Below, one piece after another: positions 38,721 through 48,739 of a stretch of 64,000 nt of DNA. Made by a program: the position numbers and the translations under genes. Location: positions 145,776-209,775 of the forward strand of contig JAPPAR010000011.1 in the NCBI GenBank assembly GCA_026705445.1, read 5' to 3'. This DNA is from Candidatus Dadabacteria bacterium. Its GTDB lineage: Bacteria > Desulfobacterota_D > UBA1144 > Nemesobacterales > Nemesobacteraceae. The notes under the pieces are model-generated. The model saw only the letters and a list, made by a program, of their open reading frames with translations. It did no database searches and was not told the DNA's origin. The number at the start of each line of letters is the position of its first letter. Within the stretch, counting starts at the first letter, position 1.

Positions 38721-40127
38721 TTACGCTATATCTCTCAGTTGGATTGAGTCTATGCCGGCGGTAGTTATAACGTCCGATACCAGCACTACAAGATCACCCT
38801 GTTCCAGCACCTGCTTTTCTTTCAGCAGCCCGAAAGCATCCTGTATTCTCTGTTCGGGATCTTCGGATTTCTCCATGAGATGCGCGGTTACGGACCTGTT
38901 CAAACAGAGCTGCCGTTTTATTCCGCTGTCGAAAGTTACCGCATGAATAGGTGTTTTGGCAGGCCTGCAGTTTGTTGTCAATTGAGCCATCAGTCCTTTC
39001 TTCGTTATTACAACAAGACATTTGGCGTTGACAGATTCGGCGAGTTCAACCGCCGAAGCCGCTATATGCTGCTTGAGATCTTGTTTAACAAGGAGCCTGC
39101 CCATCTGCAGACTCCTGAGGCTTTCCGCCTTTAAGGCTATCTTGTCGAGATGTTCTATTGATTTTACGGGATGTTTTCCGGTTGTCGTCTCGCCCGAGAG
39201 CATAAGGGCGTCGACTTCCTCATAGACCGCGTTTGAAACGTCAGTTACTTCCGCCCGGGTAGGAATCGGGTTGTCGATCATCGATTCAAGAAGATGGGTG
39301 GCGACTATTACTCTTTTGCCTTTCTCCTGGCATTTGCCGACTATCACTCTTTGCACATCCGGCAGTTCCTCAATGCTTATCTCGATGCCGAGATCTCCTC
39401 TCGCAACCATAACAGCGTCCGATGCCTCAACGATTTCCTCAACGTTTCGCACCCCTTCCTGATCCTCAATCTTTGAGATGATTTTTATTTTCTCCCCATC
39501 AACTCCCAGCAGTTCCCTGAGTTTAAAAACGTCCTGTGCTTCCCTGACGAAGGAAAGGGCTATGTAATCCACTCCGTTTCTTGCTCCGAACTCTATGTCC
39601 GCCTTGTCCTTGTCCGTTATTGAAGGGAGATTGACTTTTACCCCGGGCAGATTGACATGGCGCTTGCTTTTCATGGTTCCGCCGTCGATAACTCTGCATT
39701 TCATGGTTCCGTGGTCCTTCTTGAGCACTTCAAGGTTTATGAGACCGTTGTCCACGGTTATTTTCTCGCCTACCTGCACTTCGTTGATAATGTCCTCGTA
39801 ATTTATATGAATCGAGGACTCTTCGACGTCATCGGGTCTTACGGAAACCGTAATCACGTCTCCCTCGCTTATATGCAGGTCGCTTTGCAGAACCCCGGTT
39901 CTGATTTCCGGTCCCTGAGTGTCGAGTATAAGGGCGATTGAATCCCCAACTTCCCTGTTGATCGATTTCACCGTTTCGATTACTCCAAGGTGGCTTTCGT
40001 GAGTGCCGTGCGACATGTTGAGGCGCACGGCGTTCATTCCCGCCTCGTACATTTTCATCAACATTTCGTACGAACTTGTGGAGGGGCCGGCGGTGCAGAT
40101 TATTTTCGTTTTTCTAAATGGTTTCAT
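38721..40127 (-). CDS. pyk: pyruvate kinase
   Basis: The pattern is KTKIICTAGPST...RLNMSHG...DTQGPEIR. Confidence 0.95.
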   Translation of the reverse strand: MKPFRKTKIICTAGPSTSSYEMLMKMYEAGMNAVRLNMSHGTHESHLGVIETVKSINREVGDSIALILDTQGPEIRTGVLQSDLHISEGDVITVSVRPDDVEESSIHINYEDIINEVQVGEKITVDNGLINLEVLKKDHGTMKCRVIDGGTMKSKRHVNLPGVKVNLPSITDKDKADIEFGARNGVDYIALSFVREAQDVFKLRELLGVDGEKIKIISKIEDQEGVRNVEEIVEASDAVMVARGDLGIEISIEELPDVQRVIVGKCQEKGKRVIVATHLLESMIDNPIPTRAEVTDVSNAVYEEVDALMLSGETTTGKHPVKSIEHLDKIALKAESLRSLQMGRLLVKQDLKQHIAASAVELAESVNAKCLVVITKKGLMAQLTTNCRPAKTPIHAVTFDSGIKRQLCLNRSVTAHLMEKSEDPEQRIQDAFGLLKEKQVLEQGDLVVLVSDVITTAGIDSIQLRDIA

Positions 40128-40337
40128 AGGCGGGGAAATATGTCGGGAAATTTAAAAAATGCAAAATCTTGTTAATCAAAAACTAATAATATGGAGACAG
40201 GACAAAGCGATTCCATTTAAATTCTAGAAATTATACTTTGAATTTGCAAGACTAGTTCGGTGATATTAAATCAAAAGGAAGTTTGCGCTAAGTGGTTATG
40301 AAACAAAAGAGCTTCGTGGTTGTAAAATGCCGAAAGC

Positions 40338-41090
40338 CTAAGTTCGCAAAGGCTGATGAGCACAAACTTTTTTCCTTGAGTTTTTCTTTTTCAGTATTTG
40401 TTGTATCTGTTTTGCGAGTTCTTCCGGCACCTTTTCTTCTTTTCCGAGTGAAAGAAGCAACCTGAAAAAATCATTCTTTAGGGTGTCTTTTGAGTGATGT
40501 CTATGAAGTTGCAACAAAACTTCACTGTGACATTCTCGAACCTTCAATCTGCTTTTGCAAGGGCAGGGAAGATGGCCACGGTAGCCATACTCGAAAAGAA
40601 AAGCGAGCATTGTTAATATGTTGACATGACTACCTAAGCCCAGATCATCTCTGTAATACTCAATAATTCCCTCAACACCATGTGCACGCTCGCCAAAAGG
40701 GTGCTGGCCGTACTTTTTCCAATAGCAGTAACCGTATAAATATGGAATAACTAGATGATTTACGAACCCGAGTAAGGACTCTTGTTCTAGGAAAAACAAG
40801 CGTTTCTCAATTGGGGTAGCCAGACAGAGGGTCCCATCTTGATTCAGGTGTTCATAGTTTTGGTCGATTTTTCCACCTATTTCTCTTACAACCGGAAGAA
40901 CTTCTGGGTAAGCACTGGGAATAGCAAGTTCGATGTCAAAGCAGTCTGTAATCACTGGGAACCCATCGAAGGACGCTTCAAACGAAAGAGGACCTTTTAT
41001 AACTGTTTTCCGGTTCTGAAGAGATATATCTGTAAGGCCTCTATGAGTTTTTTTTAATTCGCAAATTTGGCTTCCGACCTTATTCTTCAT
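40338..41090 (-). CDS. E2 (UBC-fold)-like protein, Cap2-short-type CBASS accessory, with a Cys/His-rich C-terminal extension
   Basis: The UBC-like pattern is ...GPLSFEASFDGFPVITDCFDIELAIPSAYPEVLP...YEHLNQDGTLCLATP (compare HPN...G.ICL). The extra ~90 aa carry CPCKSRLKVRECH...HRHH. The low-GC context is shared with the two upstream genes. Confidence 0.55.
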   Translation of the reverse strand: MKNKVGSQICELKKTHRGLTDISLQNRKTVIKGPLSFEASFDGFPVITDCFDIELAIPSAYPEVLPVVREIGGKIDQNYEHLNQDGTLCLATPIEKRLFFLEQESLLGFVNHLVIPYLYGYCYWKKYGQHPFGERAHGVEGIIEYYRDDLGLGSHVNILTMLAFLFEYGYRGHLPCPCKSRLKVRECHSEVLLQLHRHHSKDTLKNDFFRLLLSLGKEEKVPEELAKQIQQILKKKNSRKKVCAHQPLRT

Positions 41091-41094
41091 TCAT

Positions 41095-42294
41095 TTAGTT
41101 TCTCCATGGCTTTCGTGGTCTGGAAATATGAATCTTCGGTGGGCTTTCGATTTCTCTAGGTGGTACTATCTGTTCCAAATTTCCCAGCACGGGTACACTG
41201 CCTAAAGCAGAAGTAAGAGTTCTTTGGACTTCATTTCGGTTATCTTTACCCAATATATCAACCAGATCTTCTTGTAGACACCTTAACCACATGAAGAAAG
41301 CCTCCGCTCTAGCATGATTATCTTCGTGCCACCTGTCTGCAAAGTTTTCCTCTGGATTAACCGGATTGCCTATATACCACTTCCCATCGGGAGTCCTCTT
41401 TATGGGGCTAATTGACTCTAGGGTTGGTTCAAGTGCTCGACCCTCAAACAGCGCTACGTGTGCACTTAAACTGGCCACGATGTTCTTCAGAGCGGAGTAA
41501 ACATCTGATTCATTTCGATAAAAATATGCGGAGAGGGTTGTAATAATTATTGAGATTGGAGCATAGTCAACACGCTCTGCATTATTGAACTTAATATCAC
41601 GGTGACGCTTCATAATTTGAATCGTGCGTTGAAGAGGGGTACGTACCAACTGATCTGGTACATCTTCAATTTTTGCATATATCTCGGGCACTCGATTTTG
41701 AATAAATTTCTTCTGCTCAGCATATACGAGGTCGAACGCAGGCTTGTTCCGGCCATCAAACCATAGACCATACCCTTTAGGGTCGCTTATTGACCATCTA
41801 TAGAGGGAAAGAAATTTATTTGTTATTGCAATTGCTGTATTCAGATAGCCTTTTGGATAAGGGACTGATGGCAGAACATCTAAGTGAAAACCTACATTGT
41901 CTTCCTCAGAGTATATTAGAGTCCAGCACCTCTTGCCTTCCTCATCTAGCATTCTCTTATACCTGTCATGTTCTTTTAGCCTGTCACCGACTAACTGCTT
42001 TACGTACTCAGGCTTGGCCCACTCTTTTAGCAAGGGGATTTCGCACACAAGATCAATGTCATAATCTGCTTCAATACCGTTCCTTATTGGTCTTGTGACT
42101 GTGCCTAACCGAAATGAACCTTGTGGATAGATGTCTAACCCAGAATCACAAGATCCGGGGTAATCTCCGCCTTCCAGCCATTTTGCAACAGCTTGGTAGC
42201 GCTCGACAGCATCTTTGTACTTGACCGGGGAAATATCTAGGTCCCCTGCAACTTCGTTTAAAAAGTTAGAATATCTAGCTTCATCAATTCTCAT
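41095..42294 (-). CDS. cGAS/DncV-like nucleotidyltransferase (CD-NTase)
   Basis: The Pol-beta-type NTase motif is GSFRLGTVTRPIRNGIEADYDIDLV (GS...[DE]x[DE]). At ~400 aa the length is typical, and it is sandwiched between a patatin and an E2-like gene. Confidence 0.75.
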   Translation of the reverse strand: MRIDEARYSNFLNEVAGDLDISPVKYKDAVERYQAVAKWLEGGDYPGSCDSGLDIYPQGSFRLGTVTRPIRNGIEADYDIDLVCEIPLLKEWAKPEYVKQLVGDRLKEHDRYKRMLDEEGKRCWTLIYSEEDNVGFHLDVLPSVPYPKGYLNTAIAITNKFLSLYRWSISDPKGYGLWFDGRNKPAFDLVYAEQKKFIQNRVPEIYAKIEDVPDQLVRTPLQRTIQIMKRHRDIKFNNAERVDYAPISIIITTLSAYFYRNESDVYSALKNIVASLSAHVALFEGRALEPTLESISPIKRTPDGKWYIGNPVNPEENFADRWHEDNHARAEAFFMWLRCLQEDLVDILGKDNRNEVQRTLTSALGSVPVLGNLEQIVPPREIESPPKIHISRPRKPWRN

Positions 42295-42296
42295 TC

Positions 42297-43304
42297 TTAA
42301 TCCTCCAACTTATAATATGGTTTGAAAGCTTCTACTGGTTTGTCGAAAAATATAGCTTCGAGGCTGGGTTGCCAGCTTCGCCCCTCGGAGTGGCCGAGTC
42401 CTTTTAAGTCTTGTATGGTCTTTGTGTCGTCCATTTTATAGGTGTTATATGGAACCGTCTGATTTACTCTGTATATAGCGGTACGTTCATGTTCATGACC
42501 CGTTAACAGTTTTGCGATACCCATAGCCCCCTGGGACTGTCCGTCCATGAATAGGTTAATAATTCTTGAGTTAAGCGTTCCGAGACCAGCGCGTTTTGGT
42601 ATATTGTACGCCTCCTGCAGACACCCTAGACTTAAGACGCGAAGCGACTCTCTTGGCCAGTTCAGCAGGGAGATGGCCTCAACAACAGCAATCGCTACAG
42701 GATTGTTTGCCCATATACCGCCGTCAATGAGGGCGACACCATGCTGTGTAACGTGTTGCTTGAAATAGGAAGGAGCTGCTGATGTCGCCATAGCTACATC
42801 AACTGCGCTTGATTTGTAATCTGTTTTTAGCCGAGGATGATGTGCTGTTTTATAGATATAGACGGAATTAGCAACCGGATTCCAAGCTGGAATAAGTAAC
42901 CGGGTTTTTGCTTCACCGATGCGTTTTTCCCCAAGCACATCATGAAGAACAGCTCGGAGAGGTTCAGAATTATACTTTCTTAGAAAACACCATTTAACTG
43001 CTCGGATTTTCCTGAGGAGAAAATTCAGAAACGGTCCATTATTTTTACCAAATACCTCATAACTTCTGTTTTCGTAAAAATTCAATAGTTGCGATGCTGA
43101 AACTCCCATGCTGAGACCAAGCGCAATGATTCCTCCTGTGGAACTTCCCGCAATTAGGTCGAAATACTTTCCAATAGGGTGATCAAGGTGTTTTTCCAGT
43201 TCAGCAAGAAATGCCGCAGGAAAAGTACCGAGGACTCCCCCTCCGTCAATACATAGGATTCGTTTTTTTGCTATTCCGGTATTTTCTTTCTTAACCCTGT
43301 TCAA
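42297..43304 (-). CDS. patatin-like phospholipase (CapV-like CBASS effector)
   Basis: The oxyanion motif is DGGGVLG, the nucleophile elbow is GSSTGG (GxSxG), and the catalytic Asp lies in ...IDGG... Confidence 0.85.
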   Translation of the reverse strand: MNRVKKENTGIAKKRILCIDGGGVLGTFPAAFLAELEKHLDHPIGKYFDLIAGSSTGGIIALGLSMGVSASQLLNFYENRSYEVFGKNNGPFLNFLLRKIRAVKWCFLRKYNSEPLRAVLHDVLGEKRIGEAKTRLLIPAWNPVANSVYIYKTAHHPRLKTDYKSSAVDVAMATSAAPSYFKQHVTQHGVALIDGGIWANNPVAIAVVEAISLLNWPRESLRVLSLGCLQEAYNIPKRAGLGTLNSRIINLFMDGQSQGAMGIAKLLTGHEHERTAIYRVNQTVPYNTYKMDDTKTIQDLKGLGHSEGRSWQPSLEAIFFDKPVEAFKPYYKLED

Positions 43305-43526
43305 TTTTTCTTCTTGCGATCTTTGTTATTAGGTGCAACAGTAAAAAATACTTGAAAAAGGTCCCTGTTTCTTTTATAATGTTGACTGTTACAAGCTACA
43401 TATTTTATTCTAAGGAAGTTATTTTTTTATTTTGTTTTAGCAAGCTAGCGCAGCATGTTGCCTAGTACAGACAACAGAATAATTGATCTTTTTTGCTTGT
43501 CAAGAATTTTCTCAAAATAATATAGA

Positions 43527-43910
43527 ATGTCTTTTGGTTATGCTTTGAAAAAGTTTCGTGAAGGGCGTGGTTTAACCCTTCGAGAGCTTGGGAAACTGTG
43601 TGGAATAGACCATACCTATATCCATCGATTGGAAAAAGAAGAAAGGACTTCCCCATCGGAAGAAACTGTCGACTCTCTCATTAATACACTCAAGCTCCGT
43701 GGACGCAAGGCTCGCCTGTTGCGTTTTCTTGTTGGACAGACAGTCAGTGACCAGCTTGTTGAAGTCTTTCTAGAGGATGAAGAACGCCCCATAGAAATTT
43801 TTGAGTCTTTGGCCTTCATGAGCTTCAGAGGAAAACAACCTAAAACTAAAGAAGAATGGCGCAAGTGGGCTGAACGGCTGGAAGAGTTTATGAAGAATGA
43901 GCAAAGATAA
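43527..43910 (+). CDS. XRE-family HTH transcriptional regulator (CapH-like)
   Basis: The helix-turn-helix is LTLRELGKLCGIDHTYIHRLE. It is divergent from the CBASS operon and overlaps the downstream peptidase gene. Confidence 0.7.
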   Translation: MSFGYALKKFREGRGLTLRELGKLCGIDHTYIHRLEKEERTSPSEETVDSLINTLKLRGRKARLLRFLVGQTVSDQLVEVFLEDEERPIEIFESLAFMSFRGKQPKTKEEWRKWAERLEEFMKNEQR

Positions 43911-44802
43911 AGCAAAAGAGCTTGAAATTGTTTTAAAGGCTCGCGATTTCATTAGAGAATCTGGAATAAATTCCGTGCCTGTTGATCTTAAGCGTTACTG
44001 TGCGGTTGCTAAGGCTAAAATTAAGGTTCGCTATGATCTCGATGATGAAGAATCAGGCCAGACTTTTCCCTTGAACAGTAAAAATATTATCACTGTTAAC
44101 GGTAATCATACGGAAGAAAGGCAACGATTTACAGTTCTGCACGAGATTGGTCATATTATTCTGGAACTACCCTCAAGGCATCAAAATGGTTGTATAAAAA
44201 CAACTGATTTGATCAGTTACAGGCAACGCCCAGAAGAAGAGGTCCTATGCGATATTTTTGCGGCGGAATGCCTCTTGCCGTATGATTTTTTCGAGAAGGA
44301 TATTGAAGATGTTGACATATGTCTCGATACGATAAAGAACCTGTCAAAACGTTACAAAGCTTCTATACACTCTACAGGTTCCAGGTTTGCTGCTAATTGT
44401 GAAGGGCTTTGTTCTTTTGTTCTTATTGAAGAAGGTAAAATTCGCTATGTATCCAGTTCAAAATCTCTGCGTGAACTTAAGGGCTGGATTGACATCGGTG
44501 TGCCAGTTCCTCAAAACAGCGCAGCTTTTCAACTGATCAAAAATCGATCTGAGACTGAGCATTACGATGATGAAATTCCTACTGAGATTTGGTTCAACAA
44601 TGGTATCGGAAATTACGATATGTTGTGTGAGGAAGCAATCTTTATAAAAGAATGGAATCAATGTCTTTCCATTCTTTGGTTTGATGAAAACTTGAGACCT
44701 GCAGGTGAAATCGAACCTTACGATGTTGATTATGGGGAATCGTCATTACCCAGAGAATTTGATGGAGTATTGACGTGGCCATCAAGAAGTCGGAGGAGAT
44801 AA
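43897..44802 (+). CDS. ImmA/IrrE-family zinc metallopeptidase (CapP-like)
   Basis: The HEIGH motif (VLHEIGHIILE) is followed by a downstream Glu/Cys-rich region. It is paired with the XRE HTH. Confidence 0.75.
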   Translation: MSKDKAKELEIVLKARDFIRESGINSVPVDLKRYCAVAKAKIKVRYDLDDEESGQTFPLNSKNIITVNGNHTEERQRFTVLHEIGHIILELPSRHQNGCIKTTDLISYRQRPEEEVLCDIFAAECLLPYDFFEKDIEDVDICLDTIKNLSKRYKASIHSTGSRFAANCEGLCSFVLIEEGKIRYVSSSKSLRELKGWIDIGVPVPQNSAAFQLIKNRSETEHYDDEIPTEIWFNNGIGNYDMLCEEAIFIKEWNQCLSILWFDENLRPAGEIEPYDVDYGESSLPREFDGVLTWPSRSRRR

Positions 44803-44868
44803 GCAGAGTTAAAAACTAGCTGTTTTACTTATTACGCCTAACAACTAAAGACATACTAAAAAAGAAAA

Positions 44869-45942
44869 ATGTATACAGACTATACTGTTTCAGAAACAGA
44901 CTCCCAAAATTGTCCTGATAACGGAAGACACTTCTGTAGATATTTTCAACTCCAAAACAGACGGTATTTAGGAAACAAATACAAGTTACTTGGATTTATT
45001 GAGAATGTAATTTCTCAAAAGTGCGAGTCGGTAGCCTCTTTGTGTGATATTTTTGCCGGTACCGGTGCAGTTTCTGAAAGATTCAATAGTTTGGAAGTTA
45101 AAATTATTTCCAATGATCTTCTTTTTGCTAACTATGTTTGCTTGAATGCGTTTTTAGGAATTGCCGGCTACCAGTTAGCAAATATTTTTGAAAAAATAGA
45201 ATATCTTAATAGTCTGCCGAGCGATGAAGAAAACTATTTTTCGAAACACTTTGGTGGAACGTATTTCTCAGACGAGAACGCAAGGAAAATTGGAGCGGTA
45301 CGCGAGGAAATAGAAAAAATCGCGGAAAATGAGGAGGAAAGAAACGTCCTGATTTGTTCGTTGCTTTATGCGGCGGATAAGGTTGCCAATACAGTGGGTC
45401 ACTACGACGCTTTCCGTAAGAAGTTGGACATGCTACAGCCGGTAACTCTTCTGATTCCTTCTATTGACTATTCACGTAATTTGAACAACGAGATTTACAA
45501 GGAGGATGCAAACGTGCTGATTGAAAAGATTTCTTGCGATGTCTTGTATGTCGATCCACCATATAATTCACGTCAATACTCTGACGCATATCATCTTTTG
45601 GAAAATCTTGCGGAATGGAAGAAGCCCGAGGTTATTGGTGTAGGCAAGAAAATGGACCGTTCTCATATAAAGAGTGCCTATTGTCTCAAGGATGCAGCGA
45701 CCGCGTTTGCAGACTTGGTCGAAAAGGCGAACTGTAACCATATTCTGCTTTCTTATAACAATACTGGTGATTCAAAGGATGGGCGCTCAAATGCAAGAAT
45801 GAGTGATGATGAGATTCTCCAAATTCTGGATGATAAAGGAGAAATTGAAGTTTTTGAAAAGGATTACAAACCCTTTACAACGGGAAAGAGTAATGGAGAG
45901 AGCAACGCGGAACGAATTTTCTATTGCAGAGTAACGAAATAA
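44869..45942 (+). CDS. D12-class (Dam-like) N6-adenine DNA methyltransferase
   Basis: The N-terminus RYLGNKYKLL, the AdoMet motif DIFAGTGAVS and the catalytic DPPY (YVDPPYNS) are present. Confidence 0.8.
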   Translation: MYTDYTVSETDSQNCPDNGRHFCRYFQLQNRRYLGNKYKLLGFIENVISQKCESVASLCDIFAGTGAVSERFNSLEVKIISNDLLFANYVCLNAFLGIAGYQLANIFEKIEYLNSLPSDEENYFSKHFGGTYFSDENARKIGAVREEIEKIAENEEERNVLICSLLYAADKVANTVGHYDAFRKKLDMLQPVTLLIPSIDYSRNLNNEIYKEDANVLIEKISCDVLYVDPPYNSRQYSDAYHLLENLAEWKKPEVIGVGKKMDRSHIKSAYCLKDAATAFADLVEKANCNHILLSYNNTGDSKDGRSNARMSDDEILQILDDKGEIEVFEKDYKPFTTGKSNGESNAERIFYCRVTK

Positions 45943-47759
45943 TGACGAAAAAACCTTGGTCGGTTACAACAACGGTACGAAACCCCGACAGATTAAGAGG
46001 CTTTTTGGCCGTTTTGCAAGAGCTTGAAGGCTCGGATTGGAACCATGAGAATCAGAAAAAGTATCAAATTCTTCTGATTCAATCTAGGCTATACGGTTAC
46101 GGAAAACAGCAGTTTTACAACGGACTTACGGACGAACAAATTGAATTAATTGATAACCCGTCAACGGAGATTTCTTTTGAACAAGCAGAGGAGATTTTCG
46201 ATGAGAAAAATTACGAAGATCCTCCAATGCGTGGAAGACAATCATTAAACCCTTTGAAAAAGTTCGGATTTGCTGTAATCAAAAATAGAAAAATATTTAT
46301 TACGGACTTGGGAAGGTTGTTTTTACAGGATGATTTTAAAGATAATCTTGGAGAAATTTTTCTTAAAAGTTTCCTAAAGTGGCAATTACCGAATCCTGAT
46401 AGTCAAGACTATCCAAAGGACACATATTACGATGTCAAGCCCTTTGTTGCCACGCTTCATTTAATTAACAAAGTAAATCAAAAAGAAATCGATTGTGACA
46501 ACAAACCAAAAGGGCTCAGCAAACAGGAATTCTCTCTTTTTGTTCCAACACTACTGCACTACAAAGATATAGCTTTCTATGCCCAAAGAATCGTTGACTT
46601 GAGACGAGAAGGAACAACAAGAAGTGGGGTTGTTTCAGAAAGCTACAAAAAACAGTTTGCAGAGAAATTCCTGGAAACTGATAACCCCGAGGAAGTAGAT
46701 AAGCTCCTAAAAAACCTGAAGGACTATGGGGATAATACCATTCGTTATTTTCGGTTAATTCCATATGTTTACATTCATGGTGGTGACTTCTATGTTGACT
46801 TGGAGCCGAGAAGAAAAATTGAAATCGAATCACTGCTCAATCATAACAACGCGCAGACAAAAAGCTTTGAGTCAAAAGAAGAATATTTTGCATATATATC
46901 TGATATTTCTAGACCACAGCTTCCTTGGGAGACTTTTGAGAAACGTATTGAGATTATTAAAGAGCTTATTGAGAAAGTACATCAATGCGAAAGAGTTTTG
47001 CAGAAGGAAAATATAGAGATCAGGAACTACTTGAAGATGCAAAATGATGAGTTGGGAGATTACATAACGGAATTAAGGAATTACAGACGATCATTGCTGG
47101 AAGAGAAAAATCGCAAAAAATCTCAATCAGTTGAACAAATTAAGTCTTGTATTAAAAACCTGAAAAATATTCATCATTCTGAAGGCGATCGCCCGATACT
47201 ACTTGAGAAACTGGCTACACTCGGTTTACATGCACTTGATGACGCAAGGGAAATAAAACCCAATTAACCAGTCGGGGATGACAATGAACCGACTTTTACG
47301 GCCCCGGGAGATGTTCCAGACATTGAATGTTTTTATAAAAGCTTCAATGCAATTTGCGAAGTTACGATGTTAACCGGTCGGAATCAATGGTACTACGAAG
47401 GGCAGCCGGTGATGAGGCATTTCAGGGATTTTGAAGATGAGCACAAAGACAAACTATCTTACTGCGTGTTTATTGCCCCAAAGTTGCATAGAGATACCAT
47501 CAATACTTTTTGGAATGCGGTAAAGTATGGATACGAAGGGCAACGGCAAAAAATAATTCCACTTTCAATTAGTAACTTTGTTTCTATTTTAAAATCCTTG
47601 CTTGATATGAAAACGAAACAAAAATCTTTGAGGCATGAAAATCTTTCTTCGCTGTATGACCAGATATTGTCCTCTACTAATTCTTTTAGTGATTCAAATG
47701 AATGGTTGGGAAGTATCAGAGCTACTATTTCCTCGTGGCAGAAAGACATCGCTTCGTAA
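45924..47759 (+). pseudogene. large Type IIS-like restriction endonuclease gene (possibly AlwI/BstNBI family) interrupted by one in-frame TAA at 47265-47267
   Basis: The track ORFs 45924..47267 and 47367..47759 are in the same frame. Translating across the gap gives ...REIKPN*PVGDDNEPTFTAPGDVPDIECFYKSFNAICEVTMLTGRNQWYYEG..., a PD-x(n)-E-x-(K/T)-like nuclease core downstream of the stop. It is flanked by two methyltransferases. Confidence 0.5.
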
Positions 47760-47773
47760 ATGCGAGGGCAGAT

Positions 47774-48544
47774 ATGAGAACGGGGATTATATACAATGGT
47801 GATTGCGTCAAAGTGATGAGAGAGAAAATCGATGAAAAATCCATCGATTTAATTTTCGCTGACCCTCCTTACAATCTTTCTGGAAGTGGCTTAAAATGGG
47901 AAGGAAACAAAACCGGCGGCAACTGGTACATGATCAATGAAAATTGGGACAAAATGACAGCTCCTGAGTATATGCAATTTACGAGACAGTGGATCAGTTC
48001 TTGTCATAGGGTTTTGAAGGATAACGGGTCAATTTACATTGCATGCAGTTATCACAATATAAGCGAGGTGATGATTGTATTAAAACAACTTGATTTCAAA
48101 ATCAATAACGTTATTACTTGGCGCAAGACAAACGCGATGCCGAATATGACAAAAAGAGTTTTCACGCACTCAACGGAGTTTATAGTTTGGGCGGTAAAAG
48201 GAAGAGGTTGGACATTCAATTATGAAGAAATAAAGGAAATAAATCCCGAAAAACAAAAGGACGGAAGCCCCAAACAGATGCGCGACTTTTGGGAATTGCC
48301 GCTTGTACAAGGGCGAGAAAGATTGCGGGGTGAAGATAACCGTGCTTTGCACCCTACACAAAAACCGGAAGAAATGCTTAAAAGAATCATATTAGCAAGT
48401 TCTAATGAAGGCGAAGTAGTTCTTGACCCTTTTCTTGGGAGTGGGACAACGACTTATGTGGCAAGAAAATACGGTCGTAAGTGGATTGGAATTGAGCAGA
48501 ATAGTGAGTATGTAGGAATTGCTAAGAAAAGAATGAAAAAGTAA
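47774..48544 (+). CDS. beta-class N6/N4 DNA methyltransferase
   Basis: The catalytic motif is DPPYN. HPTQKP...DPFLGSGTT is the AdoMet motif in the order typical of beta-class enzymes. Confidence 0.85.
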   Translation: MRTGIIYNGDCVKVMREKIDEKSIDLIFADPPYNLSGSGLKWEGNKTGGNWYMINENWDKMTAPEYMQFTRQWISSCHRVLKDNGSIYIACSYHNISEVMIVLKQLDFKINNVITWRKTNAMPNMTKRVFTHSTEFIVWAVKGRGWTFNYEEIKEINPEKQKDGSPKQMRDFWELPLVQGRERLRGEDNRALHPTQKPEEMLKRIILASSNEGEVVLDPFLGSGTTTYVARKYGRKWIGIEQNSEYVGIAKKRMKK

Positions 48545-48739
48545 TTGAAAGCACGAACTAAATTACTCGTAATTCCTTGCCGATTTGCTCAATTGTATAA
48601 TTTCGATTTTTTGTTTCTGATTTGATAAACTCCCATAATTTTCTAATCAACCATAAGCTTTTTTGACAGCACTCCCGTTTTGTGATAGTAAACTGCTTTT
48701 TAATCTAACAAGAACCCCCAAGTTCCCCAAGACGAGACA

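What the first reader, a model, noticed from the sequence alone, without database searches (positions are those of the whole stretch)
44869..48544. Two-methyltransferase restriction-modification module whose endonuclease gene is split by a single in-frame TAA
The gene order is D12 Dam-like MTase, then a large ORF, then a beta-class N6/N4 MTase. The large ORF (45924-47267, 447 aa) and the next track ORF (47367-47759) are in the same reading frame, separated only by TAA at 47265-47267. Translation through it gives a continuous ~610-aa protein whose C-terminal part contains a PD...E-x-(K/T)-like nuclease core (GDVPDIECFYKSFNAICEVTM). A two-MTase system with a ~600-aa enzyme is typical of Type IIS systems (AlwI/BstNBI-like), though I cannot verify the family here. 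One reading is that the REase is inactivated by a nonsense mutation, leaving two orphan MTases. Another is that a separately translated C-terminal catalytic subunit from the ATG at 47367 gives a heterodimeric or nicking arrangement. A read error is also possible.
Basis: seen in the sequence. Interest (0 to 1): 0.6.

Follow-up and report, generated by a model that had tools for sequence, protein, structure and literature searches.

The report
Restriction enzyme gene killed by nonsense mutation
This is an ordinary AlwI-family restriction-modification gene cluster in which a single Tyr-to-stop base change has inactivated the DNA-cutting enzyme and left its two protective methyltransferase genes intact, a common way for such systems to decay.

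Summary
The gene order is a D12-class methyltransferase (44869-45942), an AlwI-family endonuclease ORF (45942-47759) interrupted by one in-frame TAA at 47265-47267, and a CcrM/HinfI-like beta-class methyltransferase (47774-48544).

- **Homologues are single genes.** All 117 full-length homologues are uninterrupted proteins of about 605 aa. 115 have Tyr and 2 have His at the stop column.
- **The ancestral codon is TAT.** Four orthologous loci in sibling species, with the same flanking genes, carry TAT at this position.
- **The stop is not a read error.** TAA is present in seven same-species contigs from different assemblies, representing four haplotypes. One haplotype has a second nonsense codon. 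Another loses the 3' part of the gene.
- **The stop splits the active site.** The equivalent of Nt.BspD6I E418 (E422) lies upstream of the stop. The equivalents of D456 and E469 (D460, E473) lie downstream.
- **No catalytic C-terminal subunit can be made.** The first in-frame start after the stop (M476, 47367) lies beyond both acidic residues.

The best reading is a fixed, fairly recent nonsense pseudogene with two retained, probably orphan, methyltransferases. The family is known and the event is ordinary, so interest is low.

The parts
44869..45942 (+). M1: D12-class N6-adenine DNA methyltransferase, 357 aa, intact, with a DPPY motif
   Evidence: PF02086 E 4.4e-34. PADLOC Type II MTase model PDLC03373 E 2.8e-114. 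Orthologues are 80-93% identical. Pairwise dN/dS is 0.12-0.16.
45942..47267 (+). Endonuclease N-terminal fragment: 441 codons plus the premature TAA. It covers the DNA-recognition region, the linker and the first catalytic Glu (E422).
   Evidence: RE_AlwI profile 3-325 of 441. PADLOC 'Type II nicking endonuclease' model E 4.3e-70. E422 aligns with Nt.BspD6I E418. The ATG overlaps the M1 stop as TAATG.
47265..47267 (+). Premature stop TAA, from ancestral TAT (Tyr442); the changed base is 47267
   Evidence: All four orthologous genes have TAT here. 115 of 117 homologues have Tyr and 2 have His. TAA is present in L001-L004 and L026-L028.
47268..47759 (+). Endonuclease C-terminal remnant: 163 codons plus the original stop. 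It carries the PD...E-V-T core (D460, E473, T475) and is presumably untranslated.
   Evidence: RE_AlwI profile 332-441 of 441, E 3.4e-37. D460 aligns with Nt.BspD6I D456. There is no in-frame start codon before 47367.
47367..47759 (+). 130-codon ORF starting at M476. It lies entirely downstream of the catalytic acidic residues and is not a plausible catalytic subunit.
   Evidence: No Shine-Dalgarno-like sequence is visible upstream.
47774..48544 (+). M2: beta-class N6-adenine methyltransferase of the CcrM/HinfI type, 256 aa, intact, with a DPPY motif
   Evidence: PF01555 E 1.3e-63. NCBIfam CcrM model E 3e-78, below its full-length cutoff. PDB 6PBD CcrM E 8e-63. The start is supported by a GAGGG Shine-Dalgarno sequence and by relatives.

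Best explanation
This is a chromosomal M1-R-M2 Type IIS restriction-modification operon of the AlwI family. It was inherited at the same position in a group of sibling species, probably uncultivated Thermodesulfobacteriota or Dadabacteria-like bacteria.

In this lineage one T-to-A change turned the invariant Tyr442 codon TAT into TAA. Translation now ends after 441 residues. That product keeps the DNA-recognition region and one catalytic Glu, but lacks the PD...E-x-T part of the active site. The downstream 163 codons have no usable start codon ahead of those residues, so no cleavage-competent protein is made.

Losing R is harmless to a cell that still methylates its DNA, so the allele could become fixed. 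The two methyltransferase genes remain intact and presumably still methylate the site as orphan enzymes. The site is inferred to be GAGTC or GANTC, because M2 resembles CcrM/HinfI.

Shown here: the stop, its ancestral state, its presence in several haplotypes, the position of the catalytic residues, and the intact methyltransferase ORFs. Inferred: loss of cleavage activity, continued methylation, and the recognition sequence.
For: - Both halves belong to one RE_AlwI domain.
- The top 120 homologues listed include only one truncated entry, which is this same allele. All 117 homologues of 595-615 aa are uninterrupted, with Tyr at the stop column in 115 and His in 2.
- Orthologous loci share the gene order pyruvate kinase, defence cassette, CapH/CapP, M1, R, M2, Na+/H+ exchanger, ATP synthase. 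They carry intact R genes of 604-606 aa with TAT at this codon. Their flanking proteins are 88-98% identical to the window's.
- TAA is present in seven same-species contigs from different assemblies.
- There is further decay within the population. L026 has a second nonsense codon, L102 TTA to TGA. L027 and L028 lose homology after window position 47533.
- Four of the six within-population SNPs fall in the R gene, which is 24% of the compared bases. A binomial test by hand gives P of about 0.03.
- In the alignment to Nt.BspD6I (2EWF/6QNZ), E422 matches E418 and D460 matches D456. The E418A and D456A variants are catalytically deficient (PMC6261011).
- dN/dS of the C part against the nearest orthologue is 0.38, compared with 0.10-0.19 among intact genes. 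The window deviates at 3 of 80 highly conserved C-part columns, which is within the top 3% of homologues.
- TAA is an ordinary stop codon in this window, ending 14 of 42 long ORFs.
Against: - Apart from the TAA, the ORF in the main haplotype is undamaged, with no frameshift.
- Branch-specific tests for relaxed selection are not significant. The mutation is therefore recent, or the evidence for decay in this haplotype is weak.
- Low-level read-through cannot be excluded from sequence alone.
- Methyltransferase activity and the recognition site were not measured. GAGTC is not depleted in the window (observed/expected 1.0).
Confidence: 0.9

Rival explanations
1. The split is functional. The 441-aa N-terminal product and a separately translated C-terminal product act together as a heterodimeric or nicking enzyme, as Nt.BspD6I does with its small subunit.
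For: There is a precedent in the family. R.BspD6I is a large nickase plus a separately encoded small catalytic subunit, and that small subunit (2P14) aligns with residues 434-593 of this protein. The ORF after the stop is otherwise intact in the main haplotype.
Against: - There is no in-frame ATG, GTG or TTG between the stop and 47367. The 130-aa ORF begins at M476, after D460 and E473.
- The catalytic centre itself is split, with E422 upstream of the stop.
- The BspD6I small subunit extends about 33 residues N-terminal to the equivalent of residue 434 and includes the whole motif.
- No orthologue or close homologue is split here.
- Sister haplotypes carry a further nonsense codon and a 3' truncation.
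Confidence: 0.03
2. The TAA is a sequencing or assembly error and the real gene is intact.
For: A single-base substitution is the simplest kind of consensus error.
Against: The same TAA is found in seven contigs from different ENA and Logan assemblies, from at least three studies. These fall into four haplotypes that differ elsewhere. No intact allele closer than 85% identity appears among 5.8 billion protein clusters.
Confidence: 0.02
3. The stop is decoded by programmed read-through, a suppressor tRNA or codon reassignment, so that some or all ribosomes make the full-length enzyme.
For: The downstream frame is still open and well conserved.
Against: - TAA ends 14 of 42 long ORFs in the window.
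- The orthologues have a sense codon, TAT, so the stop is not a conserved feature.
- The only tRNA gene in the window is tRNA-Glu. This covers 64 kb, not the whole genome.
- Another haplotype adds a TGA at codon 102.
Confidence: 0.03

Closest known systems
Nt.BspD6I / R.BspD6I large subunit (PDB 2EWF, 6QNZ) and its close relative N.BstNBI; AlwI family, recognition site GAGTC
   Same: - Same Pfam family, RE_AlwI.
- Alignable over residues 97-581, E 8e-30.
- Same length class, about 605 aa.
- Same catalytic residues: E418/D456/E469-V-T471 correspond to E422/D460/E473-V-T475.
- The best PADLOC model is 'Type II nicking endonuclease'.
   Different: - The relationship is distant: the full-length match scores only about 107 bits.
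- There is no small-subunit gene in this module or in its intact orthologues, whose gene order is M1-R-M2.
- The window's copy is interrupted by a stop between E422 and D460.
- Whether the intact orthologues nick or cut both strands is unknown.
Type IIS enzymes AlwI, PleI and MlyI (AlwI family), which cut both strands as dimers (from my own knowledge of the family)
   Same: Same family. Each is a single polypeptide of about 600 aa with an N-terminal recognition domain and a C-terminal FokI-like cleavage domain, accompanied by adenine methyltransferase activity for both strands of an asymmetric site.
   Different: I had no sequences of these enzymes to compare, so specificity and dimerisation could not be tested. 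The copy in the window is a pseudogene.
CcrM / M.HinfI-type beta-class m6A methyltransferases (GANTC)
   Same: M2 aligns with the CcrM catalytic domain over its whole length: 6PBD E 8e-63 and NCBIfam NF050803 E 3e-78.
   Different: M2 lacks the CcrM C-terminal domain (256 aa against 350-366 aa) and scores far below the equivalog cutoff (263 bits against 830). It is a relative, not CcrM itself. Its target site is only inferred.
Orphan methyltransferases left by decay of a restriction-modification system (for example in Helicobacter pylori; from my own knowledge, and see the review PMC12707154 on lineage-specific solitary methyltransferases)
   Same: The R gene is disabled by a point mutation while the neighbouring M genes stay intact.
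   Different: This is an early stage of the process. The R pseudogene is still almost full length, and the orthologous R genes in sibling species are intact.

Membership tests
AlwI-family Type IIS restriction endonuclease (Pfam PF09491 RE_AlwI) | Significant match to the family profile over its whole length | tested here: met
   The N part matches profile 3-325 at 117 bits. The C part matches profile 332-441 at 128.9 bits. The cutoff is 23.1 bits.
AlwI-family Type IIS restriction endonuclease (Pfam PF09491 RE_AlwI) | C-terminal cleavage domain with the catalytic residues E...PD...E-x-T (Nt.BspD6I E418, D456, E469) | tested here: met
   In the conceptual read-through, E422, D460 and E473-V-T475 align with the BspD6I residues. 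E418A and D456A are catalytically deficient (PMC6261011).
AlwI-family Type IIS restriction endonuclease (Pfam PF09491 RE_AlwI) | One uninterrupted polypeptide of about 600 aa that carries both the recognition and the cleavage domain | tested here: not met
   TAA at codon 442. All 117 full-length homologues are uninterrupted. The gene is therefore a pseudogene derived from a family member, not a functional member.
AlwI-family Type IIS restriction endonuclease (Pfam PF09491 RE_AlwI) | Recognition of an asymmetric site with cleavage or nicking at a fixed distance outside it | not testable with these tools
   This needs biochemistry. Site-avoidance statistics in 64 kb were uninformative: GAGTC observed/expected 1.0 and GGATC 0.81.
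AlwI-family Type IIS restriction endonuclease (Pfam PF09491 RE_AlwI) | Adjacent methyltransferase gene or genes able to protect both strands | tested here: met
   Two intact adenine methyltransferase ORFs flank R, one D12-class and one CcrM-like beta-class. Their activity was not tested.
Heterodimeric R.BspD6I-type enzyme (large nickase plus separately encoded small catalytic subunit) | A small-subunit gene with its own start codon upstream of a complete catalytic motif | tested here: not met
   The first in-frame start after the stop is M476, downstream of D460 and E473. ss.BspD6I (2P14) residues 34-182 align with residues 434-593, so it covers the whole motif.
Heterodimeric R.BspD6I-type enzyme (large nickase plus separately encoded small catalytic subunit) | A large subunit that retains a complete catalytic domain | tested here: not met
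   The 441-aa product ends before the PD...E-x-T motif.
Heterodimeric R.BspD6I-type enzyme (large nickase plus separately encoded small catalytic subunit) | A two-gene arrangement conserved in orthologues | tested here: not met
   The orthologous loci L005, L007-L011 encode single R genes of 604-606 aa with no extra small ORF.
Orphan methyltransferases derived from a degraded restriction-modification system | Intact methyltransferase ORFs with catalytic motifs next to a disabled R gene | tested here: met
   M1 has ...VDPPYN... and M2 has ...ADPPYN.... Both are full length relative to orthologues, with dN/dS of 0.06-0.16.
Orphan methyltransferases derived from a degraded restriction-modification system | Methylation of the genome continues without restriction | not testable with these tools
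   This needs SMRT or nanopore methylome data from the source samples.

The most novel reading that the evidence does not exclude
The 441-aa N-terminal fragment is retained as a cleavage-dead, sequence-specific DNA-binding protein. It might work with the two methyltransferases, or as a site-specific blocker or regulator. Alternatively, rare read-through of the TAA might provide an attenuated, low-toxicity level of restriction. The evidence does not strictly exclude either. The N part is intact in three of four haplotypes, and its dN/dS on this branch is still low, roughly 0.2 by my own estimate from the counts. However, one haplotype already carries a second stop at codon 102.
Probability: 0.05. 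Interest if true: 0.45.

Novelty: new member of a known kind. Interest (0 to 1): 0.12.

Why it matters
The finding matters little beyond annotation.

- The gene should be annotated as a pseudogene of an AlwI-family endonuclease, not as two genes or as a novel heterodimeric enzyme.
- The two methyltransferases should be treated as probable orphans.
- It is a clear, datable example of the first step of restriction-modification decay. The R gene is lost by a single nonsense mutation while both M genes are kept, inside a defence island of an uncultivated lineage.
- The intact orthologues in sibling species could be a source of a new AlwI-family enzyme or nickase if anyone wants one.

Tried and rejected
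- **Selection tests.** Pairwise dN/dS of the C part is raised against the nearest orthologue (0.38). Branch-specific counts with outgroups are small and mostly non-significant. I treat relaxed constraint as suggestive only.
- **Recognition site from k-mer avoidance.** GAGTC has observed/expected 1.0. GGATC has 0.81 and ranks 24th of 512. This is uninformative.
- **Organism identification from the R protein.** A scan of GTDB species genomes found relatives only up to 65% identity. ATP synthase beta gave only 'Thermodesulfobacteriota' and 'Candidatus Dadabacteria' names at 85-86% identity.
- **Unrelated DNA in L027/L028.** I tried to identify the GC-rich DNA that replaces the gene after 47533. 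There was no match in the window, in the fetched loci or in the JGI metagenome contigs.
- **M1 against solved structures.** No hit.
- **Codon reassignment or suppressor tRNA.** Rejected on stop-codon usage and on the sense codon in orthologues.
- **Phase variation.** Rejected. The lesion is a base substitution with no repeat tract at the site.
- **Structure prediction.** Not run. The sequence alignment to 2EWF already places the catalytic residues.
Full report
**Observation.**
- A D12-class methyltransferase gene (M1) lies at 44869-45942.
- A large ORF ends at TAA 47265-47267.
- A 130-codon ORF at 47367-47759 is in the same frame.
- An N6_N4 methyltransferase gene (M2) ends at 48544.
- Translating 45924-47762 in one frame gives a single internal stop.
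- The large ORF most likely starts at the ATG at 45942, which overlaps the M1 stop as TAATG. That gives 441 aa before the stop and 605 codons in all.
- M2 most likely starts at the ATG at 47774, which follows a GAGGG Shine-Dalgarno sequence 15 nt after the R stop. In relatives, the frame upstream of the equivalent ATG is closed.

**What the split ORF is.** Pfam assigns both pieces to one RE_AlwI domain (PF09491). The N piece covers profile positions 3-325 of 441 and the piece after the stop covers 332-441, both far above the cutoff. PADLOC's best model for the N piece is 'Type II nicking endonuclease' (E 4.3e-70). Against solved structures, the conceptual full-length protein aligns with Nt.BspD6I (2EWF, 6QNZ) over residues 97-581 (E about 1e-29). 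The BspD6I small subunit (2P14) aligns with residues 434-593.

**Is the split natural?** No.
- A search of 5.8 billion protein clusters returned 2601 relatives. Among the top 120 listed, the only truncated entry is the 441-aa product of this same allele.
- In an alignment of 117 homologues of 595-615 aa, the column of the stop is Tyr in 115 and His in 2.
- Contigs encoding the closest intact homologues (P0001, P0003, P0004; 83-85% identity) come from orthologous loci. Their gene order is pyruvate kinase, a defence cassette, CapH/CapP, M1, R, M2, Na+/H+ exchanger, ATP synthase.
- Their flanking proteins are 88-98% identical to the window's.
- Each has a single R gene of 604-606 aa. The codon at the stop column is TAT in all four DNA sequences compared.
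- The lesion is therefore TAT to TAA, with the changed base at 47267, in this lineage only.

**Is it an error?** No.
- The truncated protein cluster (P0011, P0121, P0122, P0123) maps to seven contigs from different ENA and Logan assemblies.
- L003 and L004 are identical to the window over 13.3 kb. L001 and L002 differ at two positions.
- L026, L027 and L028 differ at two positions each.
- None differs at 47265-47267. Four haplotypes therefore share the TAA, and no intact allele closer than 85% identity is on record.

**Signs of continuing decay.**
- L026 carries a second nonsense mutation, L102 TTA to TGA, at window position 46246.
- L027 and L028, from two different studies, follow the window up to 47533 and then continue into unrelated GC-rich DNA. 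In that haplotype the 3' end of the R remnant is gone.
- Of the six SNPs that separate these haplotypes from the window, four lie in the R gene. One is nonsense, two are missense and one is synonymous. The R gene makes up 24% of the compared bases, which gives a binomial P of about 0.03. This is my own calculation, and the numbers are small.
- In the main haplotype the evidence for relaxed constraint is only suggestive. dN/dS of the C part against its nearest orthologue is 0.38, compared with 0.10-0.19 among intact genes.
- The window deviates at 3 of 80 highly conserved C-part columns (N457D, L494F, F562S). Only 3 of 117 homologues deviate that often.
- Branch-specific counts are not significant. 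The nonsense mutation is therefore fixed but fairly recent.

**Can either fragment cut DNA?** In the alignment, the correspondences with Nt.BspD6I (native numbering) are:
- E422 to E418
- the stop (residue 442) to F438
- D460 to D456
- E473-V-T475 to E469-V-T471

The E418A and D456A variants of Nt.BspD6I are catalytically deficient (PMC6261011). The stop therefore falls inside the catalytic domain and splits the active site. The 441-aa product has E422 but no PD...E-x-T motif.

After the stop there is no in-frame ATG, GTG or TTG until the ATG at 47367. That codon encodes M476, which lies beyond D460 and E473. The 130-aa ORF cannot be a catalytic subunit. For comparison, the real BspD6I small subunit extends about 33 residues upstream of the equivalent of residue 434 and contains the whole motif.

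Codon reassignment is unlikely. TAA ends 14 of 42 long ORFs in the window, and the only tRNA gene in the window is tRNA-Glu.

**The methyltransferases.**
- Both ORFs are intact and carry DPPY motifs.
- They are 80-93% identical to their orthologues, with pairwise dN/dS of 0.06-0.16.
- M2 is a close relative of the CcrM/HinfI catalytic domain (6PBD E 8e-63; NCBIfam CcrM model E 3e-78, below the equivalog cutoff). M1 matches a PADLOC Type II MTase model (E 2.8e-114).
- CcrM/HinfI-type enzymes methylate GANTC, and the BspD6I, BstNBI, PleI and MlyI branch of the family recognises GAGTC. Both statements are from my own knowledge. On that basis I infer GAGTC as the likely site.
- That inference is untested, and k-mer statistics give no support for it.

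**Mechanism, most likely reading (confidence 0.9).** An M1-R-M2 Type IIS module was inherited vertically at this locus. A single Tyr442-to-stop mutation abolished the endonuclease. The loss was harmless because methylation continued, so the allele became fixed. The methyltransferases persist as probable orphans while the R remnant starts to accumulate further lesions.

**Context.**
- The module lies in a low-GC island (36-45% GC against 50-54% in the flanks) between pyruvate kinase and a Na+/H+ exchanger.
- To its left is a CBASS system with E2, an oligonucleotide cyclase and a patatin effector, plus the regulators CapH and CapP.
- The organism is probably an uncultivated member of Thermodesulfobacteriota or Candidatus Dadabacteria. 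The only evidence is the nearest named ATP synthase beta sequences, at 85-86% identity.

**Verdict.** The heterodimer and read-error readings are rejected. This is a new, pseudogenised member of a well-known family and an ordinary event.

Noticed in passing
window 40338-44802; L005 2703-6860; L011 2706-6856: A CBASS operon lies on the minus strand: E2 at 40338-41090, oligonucleotide cyclase at 41095-42294 and a patatin effector at 42297-43304. It sits next to a divergent CapH (43527-43910) and CapP (43897-44802) regulator pair. In sibling species the same CapH/CapP pair sits next to a different cassette containing a BilD_N/ThiF E1-like protein and three small proteins. The effector cassette appears to have been swapped at a fixed hotspot while the regulators were kept.
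   Followed up: partly
L027 2400-2493; L028 1869-1923 (junction at window 47533): Two contigs from different studies follow the window up to 47533, inside the R remnant, and then continue into unrelated GC-rich DNA. That DNA is absent from the window, from the fetched loci and from the JGI metagenome contigs. It could be a deletion, an insertion or a rearrangement, and it is unexplained. Whether M2 survives in that haplotype is unknown.
   Followed up: partly
L026 51 and 381 (window 45916/45917 and 46246): One haplotype has an extra nonsense codon in the R gene (L102 TTA to TGA). It also has a 1-nt insertion near the 3' end of M1, 50 nt from the contig end, which may be an assembly artefact.
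   Followed up: partly
window 44869-48544 compared with L005, L007 and L011: Similarity along the module is mosaic. M1 is 91-95% identical in DNA to L005 but only 62-83% to L007. From about 47100 onward (the R C part and M2) the window is 91-96% identical to L007 and 77-91% to L005. This indicates recombination within the module between sibling lineages. The switch lies about 100-150 nt upstream of the stop and does not coincide with it.
   Followed up: partly
L005 10734-12131: In one sibling genome a Transposase_mut family transposase gene is inserted between M2 and the Na+/H+ exchanger gene.
   Followed up: no
window 40100-48700: The defence island has 36-45% GC, against 50-54% in the flanking housekeeping genes. 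This is consistent with an origin by horizontal transfer, although the island is now syntenic across sibling species.
   Followed up: no
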